A DNA stretch of 64,000 bases from Phycisphaeraceae bacterium (GTDB lineage Bacteria > Planctomycetota > Phycisphaerae > Phycisphaerales > Phycisphaeraceae), in the NCBI GenBank assembly GCA_040905445.1, contig JBBDRN010000043.1, positions 479 to 64,478 of the forward strand, read 5' to 3'. Shown in pieces: positions 3,219 through 19,016 of this stretch. Numbering within the stretch: position 1 is the first letter of the stretch; the number at the start of each line of letters is the position of its first letter. The notes beneath the pieces are model-generated. The model was not told the origin of the DNA. It did no database searches and saw only the letters and a list, made by a program, of their open reading frames with translations. A program made the position numbers and the translations under genes.

Positions 3219-3225
3219 GAAGCGG

Positions 3226-3355: not shown

Positions 3356-3383
3356 ATTCACAAATTCCAAATCAGAAATCAGT

Positions 3384-3806
3384 TCACGTTTTCTCATTCT
3401 TGAACAACTCCACCACCTCGCCGTCGGGCCCCTGGAAGAACGCCAGGCGCACGGGGGTCGGTTCCGGGCGTGACGCGATGGTGATCCCCTTGGGCTCGAC
3501 GGTGATCGTCGCCCCGGCGGCGCGGGCGCGTTCGACCACGGCGTCCGGGTCGTCGGTGCGCAGGGCGAAGTGGAGAATGCTGCCTTCGCCGGCCGCAGGC
3601 GCCTGGTCCGGCCGCTCGAAGATCTCCAGGTAGTTGCCGTCACCCGTGTCGAGCATGATCGCCCGCTTGGGCGGTTCGCCCCAGGCAATGCGCTCGGTGA
3701 AGCCGAGCGAGTCCTGGTAGAAGTGGACCGACTTGTCGAAGTCGCGGGCGCGGATGGCGACGTGGTGGAAGCCGCCGCCGCCGAGGGTGGGGTTGTGGTT
3801 GGGCAT
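3384..3806 (-). CDS. VOC family (glyoxalase/bleomycin-resistance/dioxygenase fold) protein
   Basis: GFHHVAIRARDFDKSVHFYQDSLGF ... HFAL ... GPDGEVVELF pattern of paired beta-alpha-beta-beta-beta modules. Confidence 0.85.
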   Translation of the reverse strand: MPNHNPTLGGGGFHHVAIRARDFDKSVHFYQDSLGFTERIAWGEPPKRAIMLDTGDGNYLEIFERPDQAPAAGEGSILHFALRTDDPDAVVERARAAGATITVEPKGITIASRPEPTPVRLAFFQGPDGEVVELFKNEKT

Positions 3807-3994
3807 GGGAACTCGGGGTTTGGGGTTTGGGTGCCACTGGCGGGCAAGCCGCCAGTGGCACCCCGTTGTCGGACGTTGTCAGACGGAGCCTGGGATTATC
3901 GTAACGGAGTCGGGCGCGCATGAGAAAGAGCCGACGGCATGGTGGATGCCGTCGACTCTTGAAGGAGGCCTGGGGCGTGCGTGCCGGCCGGGTG

Positions 3995-4333
3995 CTACAG
4001 CGCGTCGTCGTTCTGCTCGCCCGTGCGGATACGGACGACCTTGCCCAATTCGTAGACGAAGATCTTGCCGTCGCCCACCTCGCCGGAGCGGGCGGCGGAG
4101 GTCACGGCGTCGACCGCCTTGTCGAGGTCTTCGCTGCGGACGGCGATCTTGAGCTGGATCTTGGGCACGAAGCCGACGTCCATTCGGCCGCCGCGGTAGC
4201 GCTCGGTGTGGCCCTTCTGCTTGCCGAAGCCGCGGCATTCCATGGCCGTGCAGCCGAGGATGCCCAGGCTCGCGAGCCTGGCCTTGACGGGGTCGAGTGC
4301 GGCGGGCTTGATGATTGCTTCGATCATGTGCAT
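3995..4333 (-). CDS. glnK: nitrogen regulatory protein P-II
   Basis: 112 aa. IEAIIKP..., T-loop GFGKQKGHTERYRGG, GDGKIFVYEL..RIRTGE. Immediately downstream of amt. Confidence 0.93.
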   Translation of the reverse strand: MHMIEAIIKPAALDPVKARLASLGILGCTAMECRGFGKQKGHTERYRGGRMDVGFVPKIQLKIAVRSEDLDKAVDAVTSAARSGEVGDGKIFVYELGKVVRIRTGEQNDDAL

Positions 4334-4422
4334 GGTTTGGTTTCCAAGTCGAGGTCGTGGTGAGTTGGAGCGGCTGTCGCGCTCCGCCCCGCGTGGGCGC
4401 GGGGGCTAAACGGCGAACGCGC

Positions 4423-5829: not shown

Positions 5830-6514
5830 CTGCGAGTCTCCTATGAATGTCGGCGGACGCGCGTCCGCTCTCGTTGCGTCATGCGTGGCTGGCACGCGCC
5901 AGCGCGTTCGTCTCGGAAAACGGGCGAGCGCTCTATCGAGCGCCCGCCCTTAACCTCCGCGACCATCGCGAAGGCGGCCTGGTCTGCCCCCCCCAGCGCA
6001 CCCCGCCACACCCCGCCACACAACCAGCGCAGCGATCGCGCAAGGCGTGCCCGCCCGGGTCATCCGTGTTCGGCCGCGGGTTCGACCCCTCCCGGGTGCA
6101 TGGGCATAACGCAACCGCCGTGCCAGGTGGGGCCAGCCCCGATCGTTCGGCAGGTCGCGAACCCCCGTGACCGCCACTGTCGGGGGCGTGACGCGGGTTT
6201 GATGGTCGGCGCGACTATTTCCGGGCGTTGCCGCGGCCGCGACGCGCCGCGCGGAAAGTAGGCGGCCGACCCCGCGCCACGCGGGGCGTGCCTCATTTGC
6301 AGGCAGGTGCATGGGACAAGCGCAGGCGGTCGCCCGCCGCGGGAAAGGGGGTGGTTACGCATCGCGGTTTGGCGGGGTGCGGCGCGTCTGCGGTATAATG
6401 GCGGCATCTTCCACCGCCATCGGTGCGGTGCTCGCCGCTGGCGGCAGCCAGGGTTGGCCGGTGCGTTGGCGCTGGCGCCGCGATCTGATTCGGGACCAGC
6501 TAAGGAGCGTTCGC

Positions 6515-9500
6515 ATGAGCTTGCCTTTTCGCCATGCAGGGATGGGCCGGGACCTTCGACGTTGCCGCGCTTGCGCCGCGCCGCTGCTGGCGCTCATCGC
6601 CGCAGTGGGCATGGCGGCCGTGGCGGGGACGGCGGGGGTGGTGGCGGCGCAGCCAGGCGACGCGCCCCCGCCGCTGCGCCTGGACATCGAGACGCTGCTG
6701 CTGAGCGACGACGTGCTCGCCGAGCGCATCACTGACCCGGTCTGGGCGATCGAGGCGCGGCCGGAGCGGCAGTTGGTGCTCGTGCCCCTGCTCATCGGGC
6801 CGGTCGATCAACCGCTCGAGCTCGAGGAGCCGACCATCACGCTCCGCGGCGGGCGCTTCGTCGCCTGGCACGTCACCGAGGACGAGGTGCAGACTTCGTC
6901 GCGCGGACGTGGCGGGCGTGGCGGACGTGGCGGGGGTGGCGGGGGTGGCGGGGGCGACGACATGTACATGAACGACGATCTGTACATCGGCGGCTACGAC
7001 CGCCAGATGGGCGGCGGCCCGGTGCGCCGCGGGCCGGCGCTGCCCGCCGAGGCCGAGGTCGACGAGCATGGCGTGCCCGCCGACGCTCCGCGCCTTGCGC
7101 GCTCGATCACCCTCACGCCCGACGGGCGCATCCAGTGGGGCGTGGCGACGGCGATCAGCGGGGCGGAGATCGGCGACGGCGACGGGCGCTACGTCCTGCG
7201 CCTGAGGCCCGACCGCCTGCGCGAGCTGGCGCCGAGCCGCGACGACGGGTCGCAGCAGCAGATGACGGGTCGGCGCCAGGACGAGCCGATGACCGGCCGC
7301 GAGCGCGCCGAGCAGCGCCGCGAGCTGCGCGAGCAGTTCCAGGCCGAGCGCGAGGCGTTCATGGACCTGCGCGAAGCGGTGCAGGAACTGGACGAGACGT
7401 TCGACATGCCCGCCCCGACCCGCGTCTGGGCTGTCTTCGAGCTGCCCGCGGCGCAGCGCAGCCTGGCGTTCGACGGGGACGCCCCTTTGCCCTGGTCGAT
7501 CGGACTCGATGACTACGAAGCGGTCCGGCAGTTCGTGGGCACGCGCGGGCGCCGCGGCCGCGAAGCCGCGATGTCACTCAACGCGCTGACCACGCTCGCC
7601 CGCAGCGAGCACCCCTACACCCGGCAGATCGCGGCGCACGCGGCGGCGGCGGCGGACGTGGCGTCCAACGCCGAGCCGTTCAGCGACGAGTATCGCCTGC
7701 TCACCGCGCTGCTCGAGGCCGACGACGACACATCGCGCCACGCGGTGCTCGAGTCGCTGGCGTCGATGCGCCGCCCGAGCGAGGCCGGCACGCGGTTGCT
7801 CCGCGAGGTGGCGGACCACCCCAACGCCACGACACGCCTGCTGGCGCTGCGCGGGCTTCTGGCCGCCGACCCCGGTGCCGACGACCACCTCGCGCAACTG
7901 CTGGGCACGGTCAGCGACATGCTCGCCGACCCGTCGGGGCCGCCCGCCGACGTCGTGCTCGAGGAGATCATCGTCGGCATCGGCAGCGACCGCCGGATCG
8001 TCGACCAGGTCACCACCGCCATCGCGTTCGACCGGCTCAGCGGCGAGCGCCTTGACCAGGCGGTGCGCTACATCATCGACACCGCGCCGCGCGAGCCGCT
8101 CGCGGCGGCGTGGCTGGACGATGGCCTGCTCGCGTCTGGCAGCGACTCGCTCGTCCGCCAGACCCTCGCGGTGCTCGCCGAGGCGCAGCCCGACGCCAAC
8201 GGTGGCGACCGGCAATCCAGCGCGCTGGGCTGGGCGATCGGGCGCGTGCTCGGCGGCCGGGGCTCGACCGACAGCGCCGCCTCCGAACAGGGTCCGTCGC
8301 GGGGGCGCATCGTGATCGAGTCGGCGGACCACGCGATCTTCCCCGCCCTGGCGAGCGACGATCCGGCGACGCGGGAGCTGGCGTGGCAGGCGCTGGGGCG
8401 CTTCAGCTTCGTCGAGGAGGGCGACATGCCGCGCTTCGGCGGCGTCGGCCGCAGCGACGACCGGGTCGACTCGCTCGTCAGCGCGGCCCTGGCCCACGAG
8501 CCGACGCCCCCGCAGGCGGCGAGCTTCCTGGCGCGGCATGAGGGGTTCGGCGCCGGCGCTCCGGGGCTGGTCCGCCTGGCGGGGCAGGCCACGGGCGAGG
8601 CGGCGAGCATCGCGGGGCGGGCGCTGTGGGGCTCGCAGCAGAACCTCACCGGGCCGGTGGGCGAGCTGGAGCCGGCGGAGCGCTACGCGTTCGCGGCCGC
8701 GGTGTATGAAGGGCGGTTCGGGCGGGTGCCCGCGACGGCGGGGCTCATGCTCGCCGAGCCGCGCGACCGCCGCGACGACACCGCGTCCTGGTTCGCCGAT
8801 CAGGTCGCCGACGGACGCGACCCGCAGCCGGGCGACTGGGTGGCGGCGTTCGGCGGCGAGATGCGCCTCGCCCAGTTGCTGGGCGCCGATGAGCCCGAAC
8901 TCGCGGCGGGCGCGGCCGCGGCGCTTGTCGCCGCCGCCGGCGCCGACGACGACGAGGTCGAGTCGCTCGCCCGCGAGCTGGCCGGCGAGGAGGACCCGCG
9001 GGCGGCGTGGCGGCAGATGCGGCAGTCGATCCACGCCCGCCAACTCGCGCACATGGAGGGCGAGTACCGCATGGTCATGCTGCTCCGCGGCGAGGCGAAC
9101 CAGGAACTGGCGGAGATGAACGAGCAGCAGGCTCGGGCCTACCTCATGATGGCCCGGCAGCAGGCGCAGGAGATGACCCGCGAGGAAGCCCGGGCCATGG
9201 GCGTCCGCCGCGGGCCGGCAGCGGGCGACAAGCCCGTCACCGACCGTGTCAATCTCGGCGTCGTCGACGTGATCGTCGAGGACACCAACGTCCGCCTTGC
9301 CGGCGACATCGTGAGCGTCGAGATTCCCGAGACCCGCTTCGCGTTGCGGATCACGCAGCTCGCGGAGCTGCGCAACATTCCCGGCGCAGCCTTGGATCAC
9401 ATTCCGCTGGGCCGGACGATCGGCGACATGGACCTCACGCCGCAGCCGGACGGCGCCTGGGTCGGACAGGTCGACATGCTCGACACGCGCGTGCTGGAAC

Positions 9501-9523
9501 TGCGCCTCGAGCCGGTGCGGTAG
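6515..9523 (+). CDS. large secreted hypothetical protein (helical, HEAT/ARM-like repeats suspected)
   Basis: AAGGAG sits 8 nt upstream of ATG 6515. Signal-like N-terminus. 1002 aa; the ORF upstream of 6515 looks non-coding. No recognisable catalytic motif. Confidence 0.7.
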   Translation: MSLPFRHAGMGRDLRRCRACAAPLLALIAAVGMAAVAGTAGVVAAQPGDAPPPLRLDIETLLLSDDVLAERITDPVWAIEARPERQLVLVPLLIGPVDQPLELEEPTITLRGGRFVAWHVTEDEVQTSSRGRGGRGGRGGGGGGGGGDDMYMNDDLYIGGYDRQMGGGPVRRGPALPAEAEVDEHGVPADAPRLARSITLTPDGRIQWGVATAISGAEIGDGDGRYVLRLRPDRLRELAPSRDDGSQQQMTGRRQDEPMTGRERAEQRRELREQFQAEREAFMDLREAVQELDETFDMPAPTRVWAVFELPAAQRSLAFDGDAPLPWSIGLDDYEAVRQFVGTRGRRGREAAMSLNALTTLARSEHPYTRQIAAHAAAAADVASNAEPFSDEYRLLTALLEADDDTSRHAVLESLASMRRPSEAGTRLLREVADHPNATTRLLALRGLLAADPGADDHLAQLLGTVSDMLADPSGPPADVVLEEIIVGIGSDRRIVDQVTTAIAFDRLSGERLDQAVRYIIDTAPREPLAAAWLDDGLLASGSDSLVRQTLAVLAEAQPDANGGDRQSSALGWAIGRVLGGRGSTDSAASEQGPSRGRIVIESADHAIFPALASDDPATRELAWQALGRFSFVEEGDMPRFGGVGRSDDRVDSLVSAALAHEPTPPQAASFLARHEGFGAGAPGLVRLAGQATGEAASIAGRALWGSQQNLTGPVGELEPAERYAFAAAVYEGRFGRVPATAGLMLAEPRDRRDDTASWFADQVADGRDPQPGDWVAAFGGEMRLAQLLGADEPELAAGAAAALVAAAGADDDEVESLARELAGEEDPRAAWRQMRQSIHARQLAHMEGEYRMVMLLRGEANQELAEMNEQQARAYLMMARQQAQEMTREEARAMGVRRGPAAGDKPVTDRVNLGVVDVIVEDTNVRLAGDIVSVEIPETRFALRITQLAELRNIPGAALDHIPLGRTIGDMDLTPQPDGAWVGQVDMLDTRVLELRLEPVR
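6902..6955. repeat. CGTGGCGGR / GGTGGCGGG nonamer array, sense strand of the 6515 gene
   Basis: Encodes [18 protein letters not shown]. Confidence 0.9.
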
Positions 9524-11822
9524 CGATGGCGCCCGAGGCCGACGCACCGCGCCGCCTGCGCCCGACCAGCATCGCGCCGGCCAGGGTGAGGAGGGTCGTC
9601 GCGGCCGGCTCCGGCACCGGCGTCCCGGTCACGAGCAGGTGGACGAACGGCGCGACGTCCACCGCGTCGAACGCCCCGTCTTCGTTGATGTCGCCCACCA
9701 GCACCGGGTCGATGCCGTGCTGGCCTTCATAGGCGCCGGGATTGGTCAGCGCCAGCACGAACGGCGCCACGTCGACGGCGTCGACCGAGCCGTCGAGGTT
9801 CATGTCGCCCAGCAGCATCGCGCTGGCCGCACCGACCCGCCAGTACGTGCGCCCGGCGTCGTAGGTGGCGGCGAAGCTCGCCCCCGGATTGAACGAATCA
9901 ACCACGCGATCCGCCAGCGCGGTCCACGCGCTCACCTGGTCGCCGACGCCGATGAACCCGGCGACGATGTCGCCGGTGTCCAGCAGGCTGCCGGTGTTGA
10001 GATCGAGCGTGCCGGCGGGGTCGATCGCCAGCGAGCCGTGCACGACGGCCGTCTGCCCGTTGAGGTCGAGCACGCTGCCGGCAGCGATGGCGAGGTGGTT
10101 CGTGATGAGCACCTCGTCATCGCTCGTGCGCGAAGCGTCGCCGGCCGCATTGATCGCGACGCGGCCGTCGTTGATCCAGTCGTTGACGATCATGACGTGG
10201 GCCGCACCGTCCGGCGCGCCGATGCGCAGTCGACCCAGGGCGTAGGTGGCAGGCGCGATGGCGTCGTCGACGTGCGCCGCGGCCTCGATGCTCACCGGCG
10301 CGCCCGGCGTGCCGCCGAGCATGTTGAGCGTTGACGCGTGCAGACCGTCACCGAGCTGCGCCGGCGAGCGGGCATTGGTCGTGAAGCTGCCGCCGAGGTT
10401 GATGACGGTCTCCGCGTCGCCGTGGATGCCGACGCGTCGGCCCTCGCGCAGGACGTCGCCGCCGGCCGCGATGTCGAACACCGCGTGCCCGGCCGGAGCG
10501 CCGGCGTCGTGGTAGACGAGGTCGCCGGCAATGTTCAGCGTCGCGCCCTCGGCGCGGATGAATGCGACGGCGGCGTCATGCGCCGGGTCCGTGCCGCGGT
10601 GCTCGATCCGCACGCCGCGGTCGGCGGTGAAGCTGCGGCCGTCGACGAGCAACTGCCCGCCGGCCTGTCCCTCGTAGTTGAGCACGAGGCTGAACTTCCC
10701 CGGCGTGGCCTGCTGCGCGTCGATCGCGCCGTCGTCGCTCGCCGGGTGCCCGGGGCGCACGGCCCCGCCGGTGAGCTGCACATCGCCGACCAGCAGCAGG
10801 TCGTTGCGCCCCGCGGCGCCGGCCCGGCCGCGCAGCGTCAGCGCCTGCAGCGTGACGTGCGGGATGGTCGCGGTGTCGCCGTGGGTCCCGGTGTGGTCGA
10901 CTTCAAGCGCGACCTGGCCGAGGTTGTCGAGCGGCTGGCCGTCGATCGCGTGAACGACGGGCGCACCGGCCCGGGCCTGGAGGCGAATCACGCCGGTGCC
11001 TGCCTCGCTGACCCAGGTCTGGTCGCTGCGCAGGCGCAGGGCGTTGGCGCCGAGACTGATCGCGGCCGGCGTGAGCGGGCCGAGGTAGCGCACGCTGGCA
11101 TAGCCAAGCGGCTCGATTGTTTGCGGATCGTGGCTGTAGAAATGGGTGCCCGGGTGGCCGAGCGTGATGGTGCCGCCGGCGTGGGTGAACGCGACGACGC
11201 CATCGCCGCGCATCGCGTTGAACCCCGGGTGCAGTCCGTCGCGATCGTGCCAGTAGCCGGGGTTGAAGGCATCGAAGACGTGCTGCTCGCCGGCGAAGGC
11301 GAGCGTCGCGCCCGGGGCGAGCTCGAGCGCCGCCCAACCGCCCTGGTGGCCGGCGAAGCTCAAGGCGCGCTCGCCGGTGAGCGTGAGCGTGACGGGTGTG
11401 TCGGGCGCGTCGGCGGTGGACGGGCCGACGCTCACGCGGCCGCGGGCGCTGTCGGTCCAGCCGGTGGCGATGGCGAGGCTGCTGAGCTGGAAGTCGGCGA
11501 CGAAGCGCAGGTCGCCGCCCCAGCTTGAGAAGCCGAACGAGTCGTGGACGATGTGCGAAGGCGCGAAGCCACCCCCGCCACCCCCACCATCCCCGCCGAT
11601 ATGCACATCTCCGCGGTAGGCGGACCCGACGCCCGCCCAGTGAAAGACCGCGGTGTCGCCCGGGCCCGGCACTTGGCCGGTGTGCCAGTTCAGAGCGTCG
11701 CCGACGTTCGCGGCGACGGTCTCGGCGGCGTTGATGCCGGTCCAGTGCACGACCTGGTCGGCATCGGCGCCCACGACGGCGCCGGCCAGCAGCGCCGCGG
11801 CTGGAGCCCATCGCGCGGCCAT
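9435..11822 (-). CDS. PEP-CTERM exoprotein with dockerin-like EF-hand pair (large paralogue A), C-terminal read-through tail
   Basis: Signal peptide MAARWAPAAALLAGAVVGADA. GDMNLDGSVDAVDVAPF and GDINEDGAFDAVDVAPF loops. VPEPAATTLLTLAGAMLVGRRRR is followed by 37 extra residues. Confidence 0.8.
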   Translation of the reverse strand: MAARWAPAAALLAGAVVGADADQVVHWTGINAAETVAANVGDALNWHTGQVPGPGDTAVFHWAGVGSAYRGDVHIGGDGGGGGGGFAPSHIVHDSFGFSSWGGDLRFVADFQLSSLAIATGWTDSARGRVSVGPSTADAPDTPVTLTLTGERALSFAGHQGGWAALELAPGATLAFAGEQHVFDAFNPGYWHDRDGLHPGFNAMRGDGVVAFTHAGGTITLGHPGTHFYSHDPQTIEPLGYASVRYLGPLTPAAISLGANALRLRSDQTWVSEAGTGVIRLQARAGAPVVHAIDGQPLDNLGQVALEVDHTGTHGDTATIPHVTLQALTLRGRAGAAGRNDLLLVGDVQLTGGAVRPGHPASDDGAIDAQQATPGKFSLVLNYEGQAGGQLLVDGRSFTADRGVRIEHRGTDPAHDAAVAFIRAEGATLNIAGDLVYHDAGAPAGHAVFDIAAGGDVLREGRRVGIHGDAETVINLGGSFTTNARSPAQLGDGLHASTLNMLGGTPGAPVSIEAAAHVDDAIAPATYALGRLRIGAPDGAAHVMIVNDWINDGRVAINAAGDASRTSDDEVLITNHLAIAAGSVLDLNGQTAVVHGSLAIDPAGTLDLNTGSLLDTGDIVAGFIGVGDQVSAWTALADRVVDSFNPGASFAATYDAGRTYWRVGAASAMLLGDMNLDGSVDAVDVAPFVLALTNPGAYEGQHGIDPVLVGDINEDGAFDAVDVAPFVHLLVTGTPVPEPAATTLLTLAGAMLVGRRRRGASASGAIATAPARGAVPARACRACRPVRPRRRPAAA

Positions 11823-11920
11823 CGCCACCGGGCAGATTGCGCGTTTATCTCCCACAGGCTTGTTCTCCGCCCGGCGGGTGACGCTGGACGAGCCGGCATG
11901 ATATGCCGAACTGGTGCTGG

Positions 11921-11957
11921 ATTCAAAACAACAGGGGGCCGGTGGCCCGGCCCCCTG
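11921..11957 (-). terminator. Rho-independent terminator after the 11996 PEP-CTERM gene
   Basis: 11-bp stem CAGGGGGCCGG/CCGGCCCCCTG (11932-11942 / 11947-11957) with a 4-nt loop, followed on the minus strand by TTGTTTTG. Confidence 0.75.
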
Positions 11958-11995
11958 AGGGTGTGTGTGTCACGCGATCATCGGTTGTCAGCCGC

Positions 11996-13327
11996 TCACG
12001 CCGCGCGACGGCGCCGCAGCAGCAACAGGCCGCCCAGGCCCAGCAGCGCGAGGCTGCCCGGCTCAGGCACGCTCGCGACGGCGCCGCCACCGCCGACGAG
12101 CAACTGCACGAACGGCGCGACGTCGACCGCGTCGAAGACGCCGTCGCCGTTGATGTCACCGACCACGAGCAGATCGGCACCGAAGTCGATCTCGTACTGG
12201 GCCGGGTTCGTCAGCGCGAGCACGAACGGGGAGACGTCGACCGCGTCGACCACGCCGTCGAGGTTCATGTCGCCCAGCAGGAACTCGGGCACTTCGGCCG
12301 GGGTCCAGGCGATCGAGTCGACCCACAGGCCGGGCCCATCCTCGCCGGGATTGCGAAGGATCGTCTCGCCCCACTGACCCCATTCGCCCCACTCCTCGGT
12401 GTCCGGGTGCTGCACGGCGTTCTCGTCCGGCTCCTCCTGGTTCGGGTCAGGCAGGAACACGAAGTTGGGGTCGCCTTCGGCCGCCACCTGGTCGCCGGCG
12501 CGCTGCCAGACGTCGCCCACAGACGGATCCTCGCCCGCCCAGAACGTCGGGTTGGGCGCGCCGCCGAAGAGGTAGATGCCCTCGGCGCCGAAGCCTTCCG
12601 CGATGGCGTCCGGCCGCATGGCCGCGAGGCCGGAGCCGGCGGTCCAGGCGGTGTCGCGGCTGCCCGTGACGATCGTGCCCGTGCCGTCGTCATAGGAGAT
12701 CGACGCGTTCCACACGTCGACATCGGTGAAATCGAACGTCCAGGTGACCCACGTCGGCTCGTCGGGCCGGGGCAGCCCGCCGCCGAACGCCATCGTGAAC
12801 CATGAGCTGGCCGTCGCCGGGTTGTTCGTGTGCCCGGGCGAGATGCTGTAGAAATCGTTGACGTTGATGAACGTGCGGTACTCCAGGGCCGCGCCGTTGA
12901 CCAGGTCGCCTTCCAACGGGTCACCCTCGGCGTTCTCCCACTCGGCGTGGGCGTAGGCGCCCCAGCGCGGACCTCGGAGATTCACCGAGCCGTTTTCCTC
13001 GCCCGTGGCTGGGTCGGTGTGCTTCCACGCCGGGTCCCAGACGGTGATCTCGAGCGTGCCGGGGAACTGCGTGTCGAAGTCGTACTTGAACACGGTCAAC
13101 TCAGGCACGAAGTAGGCCCAGCCGTCGCCCGTCGGGGGCGGGATGATGCCCGAGGGGTTCTGGAACACGTCGCCGGGCAGTTCGGCGAACGACTCCTGGC
13201 CGCTGATCCAGTCGAAATTCGTGCTGAAGGGCTGATCCCCACCGGCCCCGAGGGCCGACGCCCCCGGCACGCCGAGCATCCCCGCCAGCAACACAATCGT
13301 TACTCTGTTCCGCTTTCGCACAGTCAT
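11996..13327 (-). CDS. PEP-CTERM exoprotein with dockerin-like EF-hand pair (mid-size paralogue 1)
   Basis: AGGAGG precedes ATG 13327. Signal peptide present. Ends VPEPGSLALLGLGGLLLLRRRRAA-stop. Confidence 0.85.
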   Translation of the reverse strand: MTVRKRNRVTIVLLAGMLGVPGASALGAGGDQPFSTNFDWISGQESFAELPGDVFQNPSGIIPPPTGDGWAYFVPELTVFKYDFDTQFPGTLEITVWDPAWKHTDPATGEENGSVNLRGPRWGAYAHAEWENAEGDPLEGDLVNGAALEYRTFINVNDFYSISPGHTNNPATASSWFTMAFGGGLPRPDEPTWVTWTFDFTDVDVWNASISYDDGTGTIVTGSRDTAWTAGSGLAAMRPDAIAEGFGAEGIYLFGGAPNPTFWAGEDPSVGDVWQRAGDQVAAEGDPNFVFLPDPNQEEPDENAVQHPDTEEWGEWGQWGETILRNPGEDGPGLWVDSIAWTPAEVPEFLLGDMNLDGVVDAVDVSPFVLALTNPAQYEIDFGADLLVVGDINGDGVFDAVDVAPFVQLLVGGGGAVASVPEPGSLALLGLGGLLLLRRRRAA

Positions 13328-13838
13328 GGCGCCTCCTTTGATGAAATGAAGCAAATGACAACGGCAAACACACGCAAGGACACGACCCAAGGCTGAAGCT
13401 GGACAGTCGTCGCACCGCTCGGCGACGCCACCGCGACCCACGCGAGTTCCGCCAAGCATGGCGACGATCCGCGCAAGGTCGCTCGGCCTGAAGCGCGACA
13501 TGGTTCGCTTCCCCCCTGGGTGTCACGCTGCCGAACGGCAACGCATCGGGTATCGACCCGCCGCACCTCCTTTCCGCCGCCGGCCCCATGGATCGTGGCG
13601 ACCGCTGGCCGGGGAATCTATCCTCCGACCCTCCGACCCCTTCACCGCGCGCGTCGACCGCGCCCGTTTGCCGCGACAACCTCCATAGAGCTGACACCGC
13701 ATCGGTCCTGCGTTATTGCAGCTCAATCGGATTCGAGCGGCCGAGCCCCAATCACCGCTCCAGAACATGCTCGGCCGCCAGGTTGCGCGATGCAAAGGCG
13801 GAGGCCGGGGCTTTCGACCCGGCTCCGCGATGGTTCAT

Positions 13839-15068
13839 TCAGGCCGCGCGACGACGCCGCAGCAGCAGCAGGCCGCCGATGCTCAGCAGCGCGAGGCTGC
13901 CGGGCTCCGGCACGACCGTCGCGCCGCTCCCGACGAGCAACTGCACGAAGGGCGAGACGTCCACGGCATCGAACACGCCGTCGCCGTTGATGTCGCCGAC
14001 CGTCAGCGGATCGATGCCGTACTGTGTCTCATACCCGGCCGGATCGGTCAGCCCGAGCACGAACGGCGAGACGTCGACGGCATCGATGACGCCGTCGAGG
14101 TTCAGGTCGCCGGGCAGGTACTCCGGCTCTTCGAAGGGGGTCCAGCTCAGCGAGTCGATGTAGAGCCCCGCCAGGCCAGGCGTCCGGTCGACCATCTCGC
14201 CCCACTGGCCCCACTCGTCCTCCTCTTCGTTGAAGACGTAGTCGGGGTCCTCGTCGAGGCCCTCCTGGTTGGTCGGAGCGTTCCAGACGCTGCCCACGGA
14301 GGGGTCTTCGCCGGCGTCGAACGCCGGGTTCAGGTGGCCGCCGAACAGGTAGATGCCCTCGGCGCCGTTCGCGAACGCGTTGCTGCTGTAGGCGAAGGCC
14401 CTCTCGCCGGTGTAGGTGCTCTCGCCGTCCGGATGCGTCCAGGTCATCGTGACGGAGAACTCGTCGGCGCCGTACTCGATGGTCCAGTCGACCCAGGTGG
14501 CCTCGGGCGGACGGGCCAGGCCGCCGCCGCCGCCGCCCCACGCGGCGGTGAACAGGGAGCTGGCGTCGGTCTGGTTGCTGTCGGCCGCCGGTGCGACGGC
14601 GTGGGCGACATTCGTGTCCAGGTAGGTGCGGTATTCGAGCGCGGGGCCGGCGTAGACCTGCCGCTGTACGGGCGTCTCGGCGATCACGAAATCGCCTGTG
14701 CCGAACGCGCCCCAGCGCTGGCCGCGCAGGTTGACATCGCTGACCGGGTCGCCGACGTCGTCGAGCAGGCGGTAGCCCGTGTCCCAGGTGGTGATCTCGA
14801 GCGTGCCGAGGTAGGGCGTGTCGAAGTCGTAGACGAACGCCTCGCCGGCGTCGAGGAAGTAGGCCCAGCCATCGCCGGTCGGCGCCGGGGCGCCCGGCAC
14901 GTCGGTGGTCACGTCGCCCACGAAGGAATCGAACGACTCCTGGCCGCTGATCCAGTCAAAGTTGGTACTGAAAGGTTGATCGCCGCCGAACGCGGCCGCC
15001 CCCGACGACAGGCCCACCGCGGCAAGCAGCGCACCAATCGCCGTCTTTCTCACGTGTCGCACAAACAT
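13839..15068 (-). CDS. PEP-CTERM exoprotein with dockerin-like EF-hand pair (mid-size paralogue 2)
   Basis: AGGAGG precedes ATG 15068. Shares the GGDQPFSTNFDWISGQESF N-terminus with the 11996 gene. Ends VPEPGSLALLSIGGLLLLRRRRAA-stop. Confidence 0.85.
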   Translation of the reverse strand: MFVRHVRKTAIGALLAAVGLSSGAAAFGGDQPFSTNFDWISGQESFDSFVGDVTTDVPGAPAPTGDGWAYFLDAGEAFVYDFDTPYLGTLEITTWDTGYRLLDDVGDPVSDVNLRGQRWGAFGTGDFVIAETPVQRQVYAGPALEYRTYLDTNVAHAVAPAADSNQTDASSLFTAAWGGGGGGLARPPEATWVDWTIEYGADEFSVTMTWTHPDGESTYTGERAFAYSSNAFANGAEGIYLFGGHLNPAFDAGEDPSVGSVWNAPTNQEGLDEDPDYVFNEEEDEWGQWGEMVDRTPGLAGLYIDSLSWTPFEEPEYLPGDLNLDGVIDAVDVSPFVLGLTDPAGYETQYGIDPLTVGDINGDGVFDAVDVSPFVQLLVGSGATVVPEPGSLALLSIGGLLLLRRRRAA

Positions 15069-15174
15069 GTCACCTCCTGGGCACAAATAAGGTTACGAAA
15101 CGAAGCATGGGGACGAAGTCCGAGGAAACCGCCGACGCCCGGAAGGAGTTGGACTCGCCTGGCTTCGCACCCCT

Positions 15175-15211
15175 CCAAAAAGGCAGGAGGCCGTTTCACC
15201 GGCCTCCTGCC
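15175..15211 (-). terminator. Rho-independent terminator after the 15239 PEP-CTERM gene
   Basis: Perfect 12-bp stem GGCAGGAGGCCG/CGGCCTCCTGCC (15182-15193 / 15200-15211) with a 6-nt loop, followed on the minus strand by TTTTT. Confidence 0.8.
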
Positions 15212-15238
15212 AAGGAAATCACACTTCAGGCCGTGCCA

Positions 15239-15964
15239 TTACGCACGACGCCGACGCAGCAGCGTCAGGCCGCCGAGGCCCAGCAGCACCAGGCTGCCCG
15301 GCTCGGGAACGACCGTGATGTTCGCCACGGCGCCCGCGCTGCGGTCACCAGCCAGCGAGCCGGTGGCTTCCGCATCAACACCGAAGATCGGGCTGAGCGG
15401 AGCGCCATCGACCACGATGCGGCCGGAGCCGACCGCCATCCAGAGATCGGTCGAGCCGATCCCCGTCGCCTGGATCTCGATCTGCGCGTGCAGGAACGCG
15501 CCCGTGCTCGCGTCGTACATCGGGTCGAGGTCGAACTCGCCGGCCTGGCTGTCGATGCCGACCGAGCTGGTCGCCGAGATAGCAGTGAGCGACTGAACGA
15601 GCGAGCCCTCGACGCTCAGGTCGTTGAGCGTGCCCTCACCGAGCGGCAGCGTCCAGCGGCCCTGCGGGGGGAACGGCACGACCTGCGGGTTGTAGATCTC
15701 CGCACCGGTCGCGGTGAGCAGGCCGGGGATATCCGCCCCGATGCTCAGCGAGAGGCCGCCCTCGCGGCCCACGTTCCCAGCCTCGCCCGGGATGACCCAG
15801 ATGTACAGGGTCGTCGACTCGCCCGGCTCCAGCATGACCGTCGGAGCAGAGATCGTCGGATCCTCATTCGAGGTCGACAGGTAAATCTGCGGGTTCGCCG
15901 ACGCACTACCTGCCATCGCGAGCACGGCCGCGGCGGCGATTCCAAACTTGAGTCCACGTCTCAT
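15239..15964 (-). CDS. small PEP-CTERM exoprotein (no dockerin-like loops)
   Basis: GGAGGA precedes ATG 15964. Signal peptide present. Ends VPEPGSLVLLGLGGLTLLRRRRA-stop. A strong terminator lies downstream. Confidence 0.85.
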   Translation of the reverse strand: MRRGLKFGIAAAAVLAMAGSASANPQIYLSTSNEDPTISAPTVMLEPGESTTLYIWVIPGEAGNVGREGGLSLSIGADIPGLLTATGAEIYNPQVVPFPPQGRWTLPLGEGTLNDLSVEGSLVQSLTAISATSSVGIDSQAGEFDLDPMYDASTGAFLHAQIEIQATGIGSTDLWMAVGSGRIVVDGAPLSPIFGVDAEATGSLAGDRSAGAVANITVVPEPGSLVLLGLGGLTLLRRRRA

Positions 15965-16080
15965 GATCAATCCTCCATTCGGTGTGACCTACGGGTCAAC
16001 AGGTTAAACGAGATCCCAATGCGGGTAAACATAAATAAACGGTGACACACACAAAATCCAATGTACCTGACGCCGGAGCG

Positions 16081-18504
16081 TCACGCAACCCTTTTTCGCC
16101 GCAGCAGCGCCAGCCCGCCGAGGCCCAGCAGCGCCAGGCTGCCCGGCTCGGGGATCGCCACCGCGCCGCCGCCGCCCACGAGCAACTGCACGAACGGCTG
16201 CACGTCCACGGCATCCAACGCGCCATCGTTGTTGATATCACCCACCAGCACGGGATCGATGCCATGCTGGTTCTGATACTCGCCGGGGTTCGTCAGCGCC
16301 AGCACGAACGGCGCCACGTCGACCGCGTCGACGACGCCGTCGAGGTTCATGTCGCCCAGCAGCGGGCCGGTGGCCTCACCAACCTGCCAGTAGGTGTTGT
16401 CGTTCTGGAAGATGGCGGAGAACTCGGCATCCGGGTTCGACGAGTCCATGACCTGACTCGCGACGGCGTTCCAAGCCGCGGCCTGGTTGCCGACGCCGAA
16501 GAAGCTGGTGACGATGTCCTCATCGTTGAGCGTCAGGCCGGTGTTGAGGTCGAGCGTGCCGGTGGCATCGATCGAGAGCGAGCCGTGGACGGCGACGCCC
16601 TGGCCGTTGACATCGAGCGTCGAGCCTGCGGCGATGGAGAGGTTGTTGGTGAGCAGGACTTCATCGTCGTTGATGCGCGTCTCGTTGCCCGAGCCGTCGA
16701 CGACGACCGAGCCATCGTTGACGGAATTGTTGACGAGCTGGATGCTCGCCGTATCGGACGAGGTGCCGACGTTGAAGTTGCCGATGGCGTAGGTCTGCGC
16801 GACGATCTCATCCGCGGCGTTGGCGGCGACCTCAAAGGTGTTGCCGGTACCGATCATGTTGACCGTCGACTCGAACAGGCCGCTGCCCTGGACCGTGGCC
16901 GAGCGGGCGTTGGTGGAGAAGCTGCCGTGCAGGTTGATCACGGTATCCATGTCGCCGTGCAGGCCGACGCGGCGGAACTCGTTGAGCAGGTTGGCGACGA
17001 CGGTGTCGCCCCACTGGCCCCACTCCTGGAGGTCTTCGTTGAAGACGTAGCCGTCTTCCTCGGCCGTGCCTTGGTTGGGAGCGGTCTGCCACTCCTCACC
17101 CTCGGGGTCGGGCAGGAAGGTGTTGCCCTCGCTGGTGGTGCCGGCGGGTGCGACGACCTCTTCGAGGACGATGTCACCACCGACGGTCAGCGTGCCGCCG
17201 CTGGCGTCCACGGCGATGGCCTGATTGGGGTGGTGGCTGCCGCCATCCTTGCGGATGAGGATGCCACGCGCGGTGGTCAGGTCGTGACCATCGAGACGGA
17301 TCACGTTGCCGTACACGCGGCCGTGGGCGAAGATGATGCTGTAATCGCTCTCGCTGGCGGGGGTGTCGGGGATCGTTTCGCCATCGCCGGCGATGCCGGG
17401 GATGATGGTGCCGCCGGTCAGCGACACGTCGCCGAGCAGGCGGGTGTTGTTGAGCCGACCGCTGGTGGCGTCACGGGTGAAGTAAAGGCTCTTGTAGGTG
17501 CCGCCTTCGAGGTAAACGTTCTCGTTGTTGCCCGAGTGGCTGATGACGAGGCCGATCTCGCCGAGGTTGTCGAGGCGACCGCCGTCGATCGAGCCGACGA
17601 TCGACTCGTTCCCGATGGCCTGAAGGGCGATCACGGCGTGGCCACTGGGGTTGAGCCAGGTCTGATCGCTGCGGACGCTGAACTGCTGGGCGCCGAGGCG
17701 GATGGCGCCGACGGCGGGCGGGCCGGACGTGGGCGCGTGGTGGGAAGTGCCGGGGTCGCCGAGGATGATCGTGGCGCCTTCACCGGTGATGGCGACCTCG
17801 CCGCCACCGGCCAGAGACCTGAAGCCGGCGTGACCCTGGGTGCCGTGGAAGTAGCCCGAGTAGTAGTTATCGAAGGTGTGGCTTGCGCCGGCGAACTCGA
17901 GCGTGGCGCCCGACTCGACGACGAGGCCGTGCCAGCCGCCCTGATTGCCACCGAACTCGAGCGGGTTCTCACCGGTCATGGTGAGCGTGAAGCCCGAGCC
18001 CACGACGAAGTCCGGCCCTTGGCCGGTCGTGTAGCCGCGGGAAACGAACAGCGTCTCGATCGTCAGGTCCTTGCCGAGGACGAGGTTTCCCAGGGGACGT
18101 TGCCAAGTGCCGGCCTCGAGTCGGATATGGCTGGCGGCGAAGGCGCCGTCAATGGTGATCGCGCCCTCGTAGTTGCCGGCGGGCACGGTGATGTACTGGG
18201 TCTCCGGGTCCGCGCCGTCCCAGTCGGGGTTCTCGATTTCAATCGTCGGGTAAGCGCGCTTGTCGTCGGTGTAATGAAAGATCGCCGTATCGCCGACGGT
18301 CGGGATGCCGAATTCCAACTCGGGCAGCCAGTTGAACTCGTCGTTCACATCGGCCGACTCGCTGTTGCCGGTGCTGGTGGTTTCGTCCACACCGTCACTA
18401 TTCAGCCCCGCCCATGTCCATTCGGTCTGCGCCATCGCGGGCGTCGCGAGCATACCGCTCGCCACAAACCCGGCCAGGAGCATTGTTCGTTTGCGTCTCA
18501 ACAT
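16081..18504 (-). CDS. PEP-CTERM exoprotein with dockerin-like EF-hand pair (large paralogue B)
   Basis: GGAGGG precedes ATG 18504. Collinear with the 9435 gene apart from an inserted acidic module. Ends IPEPGSLALLGLGGLALLRRKRVA-stop. Confidence 0.85.
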   Translation of the reverse strand: MLRRKRTMLLAGFVASGMLATPAMAQTEWTWAGLNSDGVDETTSTGNSESADVNDEFNWLPELEFGIPTVGDTAIFHYTDDKRAYPTIEIENPDWDGADPETQYITVPAGNYEGAITIDGAFAASHIRLEAGTWQRPLGNLVLGKDLTIETLFVSRGYTTGQGPDFVVGSGFTLTMTGENPLEFGGNQGGWHGLVVESGATLEFAGASHTFDNYYSGYFHGTQGHAGFRSLAGGGEVAITGEGATIILGDPGTSHHAPTSGPPAVGAIRLGAQQFSVRSDQTWLNPSGHAVIALQAIGNESIVGSIDGGRLDNLGEIGLVISHSGNNENVYLEGGTYKSLYFTRDATSGRLNNTRLLGDVSLTGGTIIPGIAGDGETIPDTPASESDYSIIFAHGRVYGNVIRLDGHDLTTARGILIRKDGGSHHPNQAIAVDASGGTLTVGGDIVLEEVVAPAGTTSEGNTFLPDPEGEEWQTAPNQGTAEEDGYVFNEDLQEWGQWGDTVVANLLNEFRRVGLHGDMDTVINLHGSFSTNARSATVQGSGLFESTVNMIGTGNTFEVAANAADEIVAQTYAIGNFNVGTSSDTASIQLVNNSVNDGSVVVDGSGNETRINDDEVLLTNNLSIAAGSTLDVNGQGVAVHGSLSIDATGTLDLNTGLTLNDEDIVTSFFGVGNQAAAWNAVASQVMDSSNPDAEFSAIFQNDNTYWQVGEATGPLLGDMNLDGVVDAVDVAPFVLALTNPGEYQNQHGIDPVLVGDINNDGALDAVDVQPFVQLLVGGGGAVAIPEPGSLALLGLGGLALLRRKRVA

Positions 18505-18988
18505 GCGTGTGCCCTCCTTTTAGATACAGAGCAAAGAAAGAAATTCCAAAACGTGTGAACCAACTGCACCCGGAGAACGTTTTAAACCGCGTCGCCGCAC
18601 GAGCCGGCGCCGGCGGACCTGTCAGAACAGGCGATGGTGCTTGAGAACCCGGCTGCACACGGGCCTGATTGATGAATGATGATCGGCGTCTCTCCCGACT
18701 CCGTGACCTGATCGCGTTCCGTCACGGTGGCATTGTGCATCATCTTGTCCACTCATGCAAGGGAAAAACCGGCGTTCGGTCAGGGAAAGTTCCCGGGTGA
18801 TCGCGCCTGCTGACCCAGCAGCCTCCAATCGGCGGCCGCGGCATGCCCTGGCGACCCGCGACGGCCGGAGCAAGGGCAATATTTTCTTGTCAGATAGGAT
18901 TTTAATGCCGATCTTTCCGCCTGCCGCCGTCGGGATTGCCCAGCTTGCCTCAGCGCTGCCGGCGGCGGGCGAGGAGCGTCGCGTGGAC

Positions 18989-19016
18989 GCGGCGGGGGTG
19001 GCGGGGGTGGCGGGGG
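18989..19016. repeat. GGTGGCGGG nonamer array abutting the LptD-like stop codon
   Basis: GCGGCGGGGGTGGCGGGGGTGGCGGGGG, then TCA (the stop on the minus strand). Confidence 0.9.

What the first reader, a model, noticed from the sequence alone, without database searches (positions are those of the whole stretch)
9435..18504. Tandem array of five co-oriented PEP-CTERM exoprotein genes, four carrying dockerin-like EF-hand pairs
Five consecutive minus-strand genes each have a signal peptide and a C-terminal (V/I)PEP-hydrophobic-RRRR sorting signal. Four also have two DxNxDGxxDxxD calcium-loop repeats of dockerin type directly before the PEP-CTERM motif. PEP-CTERM proteins need an exosortase (EpsH/XrtA family), and dockerins need cohesin-like partners. 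Neither is recognisable in this window. A dockerin module placed just before a membrane or cell-surface sorting signal suggests a calcium-dependent assembly of surface proteins that is not a classical cellulosome. The N-terminal domains have no recognisable catalytic motifs.
Basis: partly seen in the sequence, partly recalled or inferred. Interest (0 to 1): 0.6.

Follow-up and report, generated by a model that had tools for sequence, protein, structure and literature searches.

The report
Dockerin-tagged exosortase surface proteins plus candidate socket
An uncultured sediment planctomycete (Phycisphaeraceae) carries five neighbouring genes for exported surface proteins: four end in a calcium-binding "dockerin" plug just before an exosortase sorting tail, and the fifth belongs to an undescribed family that lies beside such plug-bearing genes in several genera, so it may be their missing docking partner.

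Summary
Five minus-strand genes (g1 to g5) all pass the PEP-CTERM model TIGR02595. Four carry a double calcium-loop module 6-13 residues before the PEP motif.

- **Sorting system.** The genome has two exosortases on other contigs and no Pfam cohesin.
- **Dockerin relationship.** The module is a divergent dockerin. Pfam scores are just below threshold, almost all PDB sequence hits are dockerins, and AlphaFold2 models it at pLDDT 92-96.
- **Spread.** It is a C-terminal cassette with 28 copies here and 79 in a congener, on unrelated passenger domains. Elsewhere in Planctomycetota the same module is the extreme C-terminus. In Phycisphaeraceae it is fused to PEP-CTERM.
- **Specificity positions.** The four columns that are most uniform within a genome and most different between genomes are loop positions 10 and 11 of both repeats. 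These positions set cohesin specificity in cellulosomes.
- **The fifth gene.** g4 is not a paralogue lacking the cassette. Its family has no Pfam, NCBIfam or PDB match. In 7 of 10 loci from six genera it lies directly after a dockerin/PEP-CTERM gene whose passenger domain differs each time.

Best reading: exosortase-sorted proteins that dock through calcium on a shared partner, with g4 the leading candidate. Neither binding nor g4's fold was tested.

The parts
16081..18504 (-). g5: 807-aa secreted protein with signal peptide, beta-solenoid passenger, dockerin-like cassette and PEP-CTERM
   Evidence: ORF. TIGR02595 23.2 bits. AlphaFold2 pLDDT 69.7, pTM 0.70, all-beta over residues 25-713. Foldseek gave only weak beta-helix matches, E >= 0.019. 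41% identical to g1.
16972..17157 (-). Acidic Trp-rich EWGQWG insert in g5 (residues about 450-511)
   Evidence: pLDDT is 35-42 here. The motif occurs only in g2, g3 and g5 in the whole genome. It is present in relatives P0002 and P0003 and absent from g1 and P0004-P0009.
16168..16365 (-). Dockerin-like cassette of g5 (two calcium loops, AV at positions 10-11 of both)
   Evidence: 127.9 bits to the cassette profile. Word depth is several-fold above the flanks at 16123-16584. A 98.5% identical copy lies at the end of contig C38.
16090..16155 (-). PEP-CTERM sorting signal of g5
   Evidence: Six-frame TIGR02595 match, 27.2 bits.
15239..15970 (-). g4: 243-aa secreted PEP-CTERM protein without dockerin. 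It belongs to an undescribed ~180-aa domain family and is the candidate docking partner.
   Evidence: TIGR02595 23.8 bits. Single copy in the genome. Full-length homologues in eight other genomes. 7 of 10 loci lie next to dockerin/PEP-CTERM genes. No Pfam, NCBIfam, PDB or cohesin sequence similarity.
15182..15211 (-). Intrinsic-terminator-like hairpin after g4
   Evidence: 12-bp stem with 10 G-C pairs, followed by a T run.
13839..15068 (-). g3: 409-aa secreted protein with orphan beta-rich N-domain, EWGQWG insert, dockerin-like cassette and PEP-CTERM
   Evidence: The N-domain finds only 3 proteins among 1.84 billion cluster representatives. In the AlphaFold2 model the N-domain is below 50 pLDDT, the cassette is 92-96 and the transmembrane helix is about 90.
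13926..14123 (-). Dockerin-like cassette of g3
   Evidence: 124.2 bits to the cassette profile. Pfam Dockerin_1 17.7-21.1 bits. Helices at residues 330-341, 343-350, 354-358 and 372-379.
11996..13327 (-). g2: 443-aa paralogue of g3 (50% identity) with the same architecture
   Evidence: The cassette lies at 12086-12286 and the PEP-CTERM at 12005-12070.
11932..11957 (-). Terminator-like hairpin after g2, followed by a promoter-like site at 11898-11926 for g1
9435..11855 (-). g1: 806-aa paralogue of g5 without the EWGQWG insert. It has a dockerin-like cassette (9624-9821), a PEP-CTERM (9549-9617) and a 39-residue tail after RRRR.
   Evidence: TIGR02595 17.1 bits. Pfam Dockerin_1 20.9 bits by hmmscan, and 22.8 (24.9 with neighbouring stretches) in the six-frame search.

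Best explanation
The locus encodes five Sec-exported cargo proteins of the PEP-CTERM/exosortase sorting system in a Phycisphaeraceae (Planctomycetota) bacterium.

**Cargo.** Four proteins carry lineage-specific passenger domains. g1 and g5 have a long beta-solenoid that looks adhesin-like or lyase-like. g2 and g3 have an orphan beta-rich domain. In each, a divergent planctomycete-type dockerin follows, then a 6-13 residue linker, then the PEP-CTERM signal.

**Proposed mechanism (inferred).**
1. The PEP-CTERM helix holds the precursor in the inner membrane.
2. One of the two exosortases cleaves at or near the PEP motif.
3. The mature protein then ends with the dockerin, the arrangement that other Planctomycetota encode directly.
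4. The dockerin, folded around two calcium ions, docks the protein on a shared partner that is specific to each genome, in the cell envelope or the exopolysaccharide matrix.

**Partner.** The best candidate is the g4 family: small, secreted, PEP-CTERM-anchored, encoded between dockerin-bearing genes, single-copy here against 27 plugs.

**Shown:** the domain architecture, the presence of exosortases, the dockerin relationship, the cassette expansion, the genome-specific residues at positions 10 and 11, and the conserved neighbourhood. **Inferred:** calcium binding, exosortase cleavage, docking and the identity of the partner.
For: **PEP-CTERM and exosortases**
- All five genes pass TIGR02595.
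- The genome holds 40 PEP-CTERM matches.
- Two exosortases lie beside EpsI-like, Wza-like and chain-length genes.
- Exosortases occur in 21 of 21 related genomes.

**Dockerin relationship**
- D/N/D/G/D/D ligand columns are invariant in both repeats.
- About 20 of 22 PDB sequence hits of the cassette profile are dockerins; the best is 5m2s_B at E = 1.9e-4.
- Pfam Dockerin_1 scores 15-21 bits, and 24.9 for g1 in the six-frame search.
- AlphaFold2 gives pLDDT 92-96 with loop-helix pairs.

**Mobile cassette**
- There are 28 copies here, 26 of them followed at once by PEP-CTERM.
- The congener has 79 copies.
- Passengers include trypsin-like and aspartyl proteases, GH16 and beta-helix proteins. In relatives they include SGNH, subtilase and M28 domains.
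- Distant homologues of both passenger families join the passenger directly to PEP-CTERM.

**Terminal dockerin elsewhere**
- 53 of 58 modules outside Phycisphaeraceae end within 6 residues of the stop codon.
- 27 of 29 inside the family are followed by PEP-CTERM.

**Shared partner**
- Of 68 columns, the four with the highest between-genome minus within-genome entropy are loop positions 10 and 11 of both repeats.
- They are AV/AV here and TG/TG in the congener. Position 10 is the only near-fixed difference between the two.
- These positions are the established cohesin-specificity determinants (PMC8063739, PMC3413522).

**g4 as partner**
- 7 of 10 g4-like loci in six genera have a dockerin/PEP-CTERM gene directly upstream, and 4 also have one downstream.
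- The passengers of these neighbours are unrelated between genomes.
- The background is 2-35 Pfam dockerin hits per genome.
- The family also occurs as two tandem domains in one protein and fused to a dockerin-like module, as cohesins do in scaffoldins.
- Two paralogues in G065 sit beside different 10/11 codes (VD and NQ). The only close cross-genome pair, G011 and G065b at 54% identity, shares the NQ code.
Against: - No binding, calcium or localisation data exist, and no RNA data were found.
- g4-like proteins show no sequence similarity to cohesins or to any solved structure.
- The congener with 79 cassettes shows no full-length g4-like gene. That genome is only 72% complete.
- Three of 10 g4-like loci have no dockerin neighbour.
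- The window's own dockerin scores lie below Pfam's and NCBIfam's curated cut-offs.
- Both plug and candidate socket carry PEP-CTERM, so a plain tethering role is not obviously needed.
- Within-genome uniformity could partly reflect gene conversion. There is a 98.5% identical copy of g5's 3' end on C38, and a mosaic relative, P0004.
- Eight of the ten genomes in the entropy test contribute only 3-5 modules each.
- PEP-CTERM genes tend to cluster, which inflates adjacency in this genome, where about two thirds of them carry the cassette.
Confidence: 0.55

Rival explanations
1. The dockerin-like module is only a calcium-stabilised spacer or folding unit between passenger and anchor and has no specific partner. 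Its uniformity within a genome comes from concerted evolution (gene conversion) of a 3' cassette. g4 is simply another PEP-CTERM cargo that happens to sit in PEP-CTERM gene arrays.
For: - The cassettes are direct repeats 2-4 kb apart with 72-82% DNA identity.
- One copy is 98.5% identical, and P0004 is a mosaic.
- No Pfam cohesin is present in 31 genomes.
- g4 has no cohesin similarity.
- PEP-CTERM genes cluster elsewhere in this genome.
Against: - Gene conversion would homogenise all columns. Yet other variable columns (33, 41, 62) stay variable within genomes, and only positions 10/11 of both repeats, then position 14, are both uniform within and different between genomes.
- Most cassette pairs are only 72-82% identical in DNA, so conversion is not recent.
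- g4-like adjacency holds in genomes with few dockerins, such as G018 with 2 Pfam hits, one of them (C26:8325-8498) in a gene flanking g4-like. The cassette profile's two G018 hits are the two flanking genes.
- The adjacency holds with unrelated passengers.
Confidence: 0.2
2. The module is part of an extended sorting signal. It would be a 'pre-PEP' domain recognised in the periplasm by one of the two exosortases or its EpsI domain, comparable to the PGF-pre-PGF domain before archaeal PGF-CTERM. Its genome-specific residues would match that enzyme.
For: - The spacing to the PEP motif is fixed and short at 6-13 residues.
- There are two exosortases, one fused to an EpsI-like domain, and roughly two classes of PEP-CTERM cargo: 26 with the cassette out of 40.
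- The fusion is confined to Phycisphaeraceae.
Against: - The same module is the free C-terminus of proteins without PEP-CTERM in 53 of 58 cases elsewhere in the phylum, so its ancestral role does not depend on exosortase.
- PEP-CTERM sequences with and without the cassette look alike.
- This reading does not explain the g4-like neighbourhood.
Confidence: 0.1
3. The module binds acidic exopolysaccharide or lipopolysaccharide through calcium bridges. This would glue exosortase cargo into the EPS matrix, and no protein partner would be involved.
For: - Both exosortases sit in polysaccharide-export loci.
- PEP-CTERM systems are associated with EPS and floc formation, by established knowledge (Haft 2006) and the NCBIfam floc_PepA model.
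- No cohesin is present.
Against: A genome-specific code at the protein-recognition positions, kept symmetrical in both repeats, is the signature of protein-protein docking and is not expected for polysaccharide binding. The conserved g4-like neighbour is also left unexplained.
Confidence: 0.1

Closest known systems
Type I dockerin of cellulosomes (Pfam PF00404), for example Ruminococcus flavefaciens group 1 dockerins (PDB 5m2s, 5m2o) and Clostridium thermocellum dockerins
   Same: - Two tandem 12-residue EF-hand-like calcium loops, each followed by a helix.
- Internal two-fold symmetry.
- C-terminal position on varied secreted proteins, including hydrolases.
- Organism-specific residues at loop positions 10/11.
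- The best sequence matches in the PDB are dockerins.
   Different: - Scores fall below Pfam's cut-off for the window's copies.
- No Pfam cohesin occurs in the genome or in 30 relatives.
- The host is a diderm planctomycete.
- The module is followed by a PEP-CTERM membrane sorting signal and is not the free C-terminus.
- Most passengers are not carbohydrate-active enzymes.
PEP-CTERM/exosortase (EpsH/Xrt) protein sorting system (Haft et al. 2006; TIGR02595, TIGR02602)
   Same: - Signal peptide plus a C-terminal PEP motif, hydrophobic helix and Arg cluster.
- Many paralogous cargo proteins per genome (40 here).
- Exosortases encoded in EPS-type loci with EpsI.
   Different: - Two thirds of the cargo carry a dockerin-like module directly before the signal. 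This architecture appears in precomputed Pfam annotations but in no paper of the searched library.
- Neither exosortase reaches the cut-off of a named Xrt subtype.
GC-type dockerin domain-anchored proteins (NCBIfam NF041540) and the Cys-containing terminal dockerin-like modules of other Planctomycetota
   Same: A dockerin-like double calcium-loop module used as a C-terminal anchoring domain on diverse secreted proteins of Planctomycetota. The module found phylum-wide with this cassette's profile is usually the extreme C-terminus.
   Different: - The window's cassettes score only 11.7-13.1 bits against a cut-off of 29, and the genome's best is 19.
- They lack the 2-4 cysteines.
- They are followed by PEP-CTERM.
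Single-cohesin anchoring scaffoldins (for example R. flavefaciens ScaE, sortase-anchored) and the hypothetical 'planctosome' of freshwater Planctomycetes (PMC6461901)
   Same: The logic is the same: a small anchored receptor encoded near proteins that carry the plug. The g4 family also occurs as tandem domains and fused to a dockerin-like module, as cohesins do.
   Different: - g4-like proteins have no detectable cohesin sequence similarity, and their fold is unknown.
- The anchor is PEP-CTERM, not LPXTG or SLH.
- The planctosome model uses Pfam-recognisable cohesins, which are absent here.

Membership tests
PEP-CTERM exosortase cargo (TIGR02595 / PF07589) | C-terminal PEP motif, hydrophobic helix and basic cluster that score above the curated cut-off | tested here: met
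   TIGR02595 gives 17.1, 23.3, 22.6, 23.8 and 23.2 bits against a cut-off of 16. PF07589's cut-off of 20.7 is met by g2, g4 and g5, narrowly missed by g3 (19.7) and missed by g1 (14.9).
PEP-CTERM exosortase cargo (TIGR02595 / PF07589) | Signal lies at the extreme C-terminus | tested here: met
   g2 to g5 stop 1-2 residues after the Arg cluster. g1 is the exception, with 39 further residues. Similar tails occur in several other paralogues of the genome.
PEP-CTERM exosortase cargo (TIGR02595 / PF07589) | An exosortase (EpsH/Xrt) is encoded in the same genome | tested here: met
   Two PF09721 matches, 161 and 160 bits, on contigs C25 and C9. TIGR02602 scores 118 and 104 bits.
PEP-CTERM exosortase cargo (TIGR02595 / PF07589) | N-terminal Sec signal peptide | tested here: inconclusive
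   Read by eye: a basic n-region, a hydrophobic core and an AxA-like site in all five. No predictor was available.
Dockerin (PF00404) | Two tandem segments, each a 12-residue calcium loop (D1, N3, D5, D9, D12) followed by a helix | tested here: met
   Invariant G6, D7, D11, G12, D15, D18 and G44, D45, N47, D53, D56, with N9 and D49 nearly invariant, in 24 copies. AlphaFold2 helices follow each loop at pLDDT 92-96.
Dockerin (PF00404) | Score above Pfam's gathering cut-off (22.9 bits) | tested here: inconclusive
   hmmscan gives 20.9 (g1), 15.4 (g2) and 17.7 (g3), with g5 not listed. The isolated cassettes score 21.1 and 20.0. The six-frame search gives g1 22.8, or 24.9 with neighbouring stretches. 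Nine of 23 paralogues match at E < 0.001. The PDB hits of the profile are nearly all dockerins.
Dockerin (PF00404) | A cohesin partner (PF00963) in the same organism | tested here: not met
   No PF00963 match at E <= 1 in this genome, and none at E <= 0.01 in 30 relatives.
Dockerin (PF00404) | Calcium-dependent binding to the partner | not testable with these tools
   This needs biochemistry.
GC-type dockerin (NCBIfam NF041540) | Score above 29 bits | tested here: not met
   The window's cassettes score 11.7 and 13.1 bits. The genome's best is 19 bits.
Cohesin (PF00963), considered for g4 | Sequence match to the cohesin profile or to solved cohesins | tested here: not met
   No Pfam hit at E <= 10, and none at E <= 1 for any of 11 family members. 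hhalign probability against CipA cohesin is 0.1-0.2%. The PDB profile search found nothing.
Cohesin (PF00963), considered for g4 | Nine-stranded beta-sandwich (jelly-roll) fold | not tested

The most novel reading that the evidence does not exclude
The g4-like family would be an undescribed, non-Pfam functional equivalent of cohesin, possibly a hidden cohesin fold. Together with the planctomycete-type dockerin it would form an exosortase-dependent plug-and-socket system. In this system one PEP-CTERM-anchored socket per specificity type displays tens of interchangeable cargo proteins. A genome-specific recognition code at dockerin loop positions 10/11 would keep each species' or each paralogue's set private.
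Probability: 0.35. Interest if true: 0.75.

Novelty: new variant of a known kind. Interest (0 to 1): 0.6.

Why it matters
Dockerin-like modules without cohesins are common outside cellulolytic bacteria, and their function is an old open question (Peer et al. 2009, cited in PMC6461901 and PMC5244752). The fate of PEP-CTERM proteins after exosortase action is also poorly understood. This locus joins the two and yields concrete tests.

- It gives a small soluble pair to test: the g4 domain and a 70-residue cassette.
- It gives a two-residue code (AV against TG) predicted to set specificity between sister species.
- It predicts that exosortase cleavage exposes a terminal dockerin.

If confirmed, this would describe how Planctomycetota assemble proteases, glycosidases and adhesin-like proteins on their surface or in their matrix. 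It would also offer orthogonal docking pairs for protein display.

Tried and rejected
- **Foldseek on the g3 model.** The matches are meaningless because the N-domain is below 50 pLDDT and the 65-residue dockerin is too small. It therefore gives no structural confirmation of the dockerin fold.
- **Foldseek on the g5 model.** Only weak beta-helix matches came up (Ag43, PL6 lyases, E >= 0.019). No family or catalytic assignment is made.
- **Homologue searches.** g5 has 9 relatives. The g2/g3 N-domain has 3 in 1.84 billion representatives. g4 finds only PEP-CTERM-level hits in the word-indexed search. A first alignment of those hits (A5) showed that they are not homologous in the N-domain, so it was dropped.
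- **Cohesin tests on g4.** phmmer and profile searches against the PDB, Pfam at E <= 10 and hhalign against a CipA cohesin were all negative.
- **GC-type dockerin (NF041540).** Rejected as the family, because scores fall below the cut-off.
- **Recent gene conversion as the sole cause of cassette similarity.** Rejected for most copies, which are 72-82% identical in DNA. It is kept for the g5/C38/P0004 copy.
- **Single operon.** Rejected, because terminator-like hairpins follow g4 and g2.
- **Expression data.** Only DNA runs from sediment metagenomes hold the locus.
- **Literature.** No paper holds both 'dockerin' and 'PEP-CTERM', and none holds 'GC-type dockerin'.
Full report
**Observation**

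The region holds five co-oriented minus-strand ORFs:
- g1, 9435-11855
- g2, 11996-13501 (likely start 13327)
- g3, 13839-15086 (likely start 15068)
- g4, 15239-15970
- g5, 16081-18504

All five reach the curated cut-off of TIGR02595 PEP_CTERM. Three also reach Pfam PF07589's cut-off. g1, g2, g3 and g5 each carry two DxNxDGxxDxxD loops just before the PEP motif, and g4 has none. g1 and g5 are paralogues at 41% identity, and g2 and g3 are paralogues at 50%.

In g1 the frame runs 39 residues past the Arg cluster and overlaps the convergent gene by 89 nt. Similar tails occur in other paralogues. They would lie in the cytoplasm and be lost with the anchor.

Terminator-like hairpins follow g4 and g2, and a promoter-like site precedes g1, so there are several transcription units. 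The neighbours are housekeeping genes: Amt, an LptD-like protein, ThiS/ThiG and a methyltransferase.

Logan contigs of two sediment metagenomes tile the array without differences. The breaks fall only at the cassette repeats.

**Whole-genome context**

The window is contig C43 of a 3.27-Mb assembly that is 91% complete. Homologues are labelled Phycisphaeraceae bacterium.

The genome has two exosortases. One is a 756-residue fusion with an EpsI-like domain, next to a Wza-like export gene. The other is a 292-residue enzyme followed by a separate EpsI-like gene and a chain-length-determinant-like gene. Neither reaches the cut-off of a named Xrt subtype. Exosortases occur in 21 of 21 related genomes. 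The genome has 40 six-frame PEP-CTERM matches. Pfam cohesin is absent here and in 30 relatives.

**The calcium-loop module is a divergent dockerin**

- A profile of 24 copies has invariant ligand columns in both repeats and 77% mean column identity.
- Against PDB sequences, about 20 of its 22 hits are dockerins. The best is R. flavefaciens Doc8 (5m2s_B, E = 1.9e-4), and the match includes the inter-repeat 'L(S/T)NPxxY' segment.
- Pfam Dockerin_1 scores lie just under the cut-off for the window's copies and over it for some paralogues.
- NCBIfam's GC-type dockerin model scores only 11.7-13.1 bits against a cut-off of 29.
- AlphaFold2, given the paralogue alignment, models g3 residues 318-380 at pLDDT 92-96. 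Helices follow each loop, and a confident C-terminal transmembrane helix comes after.
- Foldseek on that model was uninformative.

**The module is a cassette**

My HMM finds 28 copies in the genome. Twenty-six are followed at once by PEP-CTERM, with 6-13 residues between the last helix and the PEP motif. The same-genus genome has 79 copies, and other genera of the family have 0-2 strong matches.

Passengers in this genome include three trypsin-like proteases, an aspartyl protease, a GH16, a beta-helix protein and a CAP domain. Most have no Pfam domain. In metagenomic relatives the passengers include SGNH, subtilase, M28 and LamG domains.

Distant homologues of the g1/g5 passenger (P0006-P0009) and of the g2/g3 passenger (P0038) join the passenger directly to PEP-CTERM. 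The module was therefore inserted between passenger and signal in this lineage.

DNA identity between cassettes is mostly 72-82%. The exception is a 98.5% identical copy of g5's 3' end at the end of contig C38.

**Phylum-wide view**

A scan of one genome per species found 110 confirmed relatives of the module, almost all in Planctomycetota MAGs.
- Outside Phycisphaeraceae, 53 of 58 end within six residues of the stop codon. They usually contain 2-4 cysteines.
- Inside Phycisphaeraceae, 27 of 29 are cysteine-free and followed by PEP-CTERM.

So the ancestral state is a terminal dockerin-like anchor. This family placed an exosortase signal after it. If exosortase cleaves at the PEP motif, as generally proposed, the mature protein regains a near-terminal dockerin. 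That step is an inference.

**Specificity positions**

I aligned modules from ten genomes with at least three copies each. For each of the 68 columns I compared within-genome and between-genome entropy. The top four columns are 16, 17, 54 and 55, which are loop positions 10 and 11 of repeats 1 and 2.

This genome has A-V in both repeats: A in 24/27 and 26/27 copies, V in 18/27 and 18/27. The congener has T-G: T in 20/20 and 19/20, G in 18/20 and 17/20. Position 10 in each repeat is the only near-fixed difference between the two species. Other genomes have their own pairs (NF, NG, FF, FD, AF, GA), usually the same in both repeats.

Positions 10 and 11 of each repeat are the established cohesin-recognition and specificity determinants (PMC8063739; PMC3413522). 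Other fast-evolving columns stay variable within genomes. Plain gene conversion therefore does not explain the pattern, and selection for a shared partner does. Caveats: eight genomes contribute only 3-5 modules each, and the loci were chosen by similarity to g5's cassette.

**g4**

To my eye g4 resembled a cohesin, and earlier notes of this scan describe PEP-CTERM 'sockets' beside dockerin genes in other genomes. I treated both as leads.

Sequence tests for cohesin were all negative, and no NCBIfam model covers the domain. Even so, g4 has full-length homologues in eight other genomes of the order. They form a clean family of about 180 residues with conserved NP, RW and DPxYDAxxGAFL motifs.

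- **Adjacency.** In 7 of 10 loci, from six genera and two families, a dockerin-like/PEP-CTERM gene lies directly upstream on the same strand. In four loci another lies directly downstream, as in the window, where the order is g5, g4, g3.
- **Unrelated passengers.** The passenger domains of these neighbours are unrelated between genomes. The conserved link is therefore to the dockerin/PEP-CTERM tail.
- **Background.** Pfam dockerin hits number 2-35 per genome. G018 has two, and one of them lies in a gene flanking g4-like. The cassette profile's only two hits in G018 are the two flanking genes.
- **Scaffoldin-like variants.** The family also occurs as two tandem domains in one 787-residue protein, and fused to a dockerin-like module plus PEP-CTERM. 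These architectures are typical of cohesin-bearing scaffoldins.
- **Matching codes.** In G065, two g4-like paralogues that share 23% identity sit beside dockerins with different 10/11 pairs (VD/VD and NQ/NQ). The only close cross-genome pair, G011 and G065b at 54% identity, shares the NQ code. This is a single anecdote in the predicted direction.
- **Against.** g4 is single-copy here, and no full-length copy was found in the 72%-complete congener. Three loci lack a dockerin neighbour.

**Passenger domains**

g5 is modelled as a long all-beta solenoid (pLDDT 69.7, pTM 0.70). Its only matches are weak ones to autotransporter passengers and polysaccharide lyases. The g2/g3 domain is essentially an orphan and could not be modelled. 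No catalytic assignment is possible.

**Verdict**

The locus is best read as exosortase cargo tagged with a planctomycete-type dockerin, plus a conserved candidate partner.

The architecture appears in precomputed Pfam annotations, and curators know related anchoring dockerins (NF041540). I found no paper that describes it. I rate it a new variant of a known kind. The decisive experiments are set out in the next-steps field.

Noticed in passing
window 16972-17157 (g5), about 14181-14267 (g3), about 12353-12475 (g2): An acidic, Trp-rich segment (…YVFNE…EWGQWG…) occurs only in these three genes in the whole genome. It is inserted in two unrelated passenger folds. In g2/g3 it interrupts the last strands of the N-domain, as the comparison with P0038 shows. 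In g5 it is modelled as disordered. Relatives P0002 and P0003 have it, while g1 and P0004-P0009 lack it.
   Followed up: partly
window 9435-9546: g1 continues 39 residues past the RRRR cluster and overlaps the convergent 1070-aa HEAT-repeat-like gene (6311-9523) by 89 nt. Several other cassette proteins in the genome also have tails of 9-70 residues after the Arg cluster.
   Followed up: partly
window 16081-16626; genome contigs C38:22889-23149 and C20:6-526: The end of contig C38 holds a 98.5% identical copy of g5's last 261 nt. The start of contig C20 holds a partial third paralogue of g1/g5 (P0003). Word depth is several-fold above the flanks (roughly 3-7x) at 16123-16584. The assembly breaks at this repeat, so the link between g5's N-terminal part and the rest of the array rests on the assembler's path through it. 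P0004 (NCBI, Phycisphaeraceae MAG) is a mosaic: 44% identical to g5 overall, but with 3 differences in the last 110 residues.
   Followed up: partly
L148 (G113:C3:173500-181500) 3249-5609; L152 (G119:C45) 3025-3957: The g4-like family has variants. One 787-residue ORF carries two tandem g4-like domains. One 311-residue protein has a g4-like domain followed by a dockerin-like double loop and PEP-CTERM.
   Followed up: partly
L051 (JAVYLV010000028.1, labelled Thermoplasmatota archaeon MAG): A 61% identical copy of the planctomycete-type module, at the extreme C-terminus of an ORF, lies on a contig binned as an archaeon. This is probably a binning error, or possibly a transfer.
   Followed up: no
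L001 (G000:C25) 1171-3441; L002 (G000:C9) 1450-2328 and 751-1443: The two exosortases differ in build. One is fused to an EpsI-like domain (756 aa, best to XrtW/XrtD models). The other is short (best to XrtA) and has a separate EpsI-like gene. Both fall below every named subtype's cut-off. Whether they divide the cargo with and without the cassette is unknown.
   Followed up: no
L032-L050 (SLDI01…, Phycisphaeraceae bacterium CSSed162cmB_538): The congener with the TG code and the largest cassette expansion has an isolate name that, from my memory only, points to soda-lake sediment. Free calcium is very low in such water, which would be odd for a calcium-dependent module. I did not verify this.
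   Followed up: no
window 12000-20000: G+C content is slightly lower across the array (0.66-0.69) than in the flanks (0.70-0.74).
   Followed up: no
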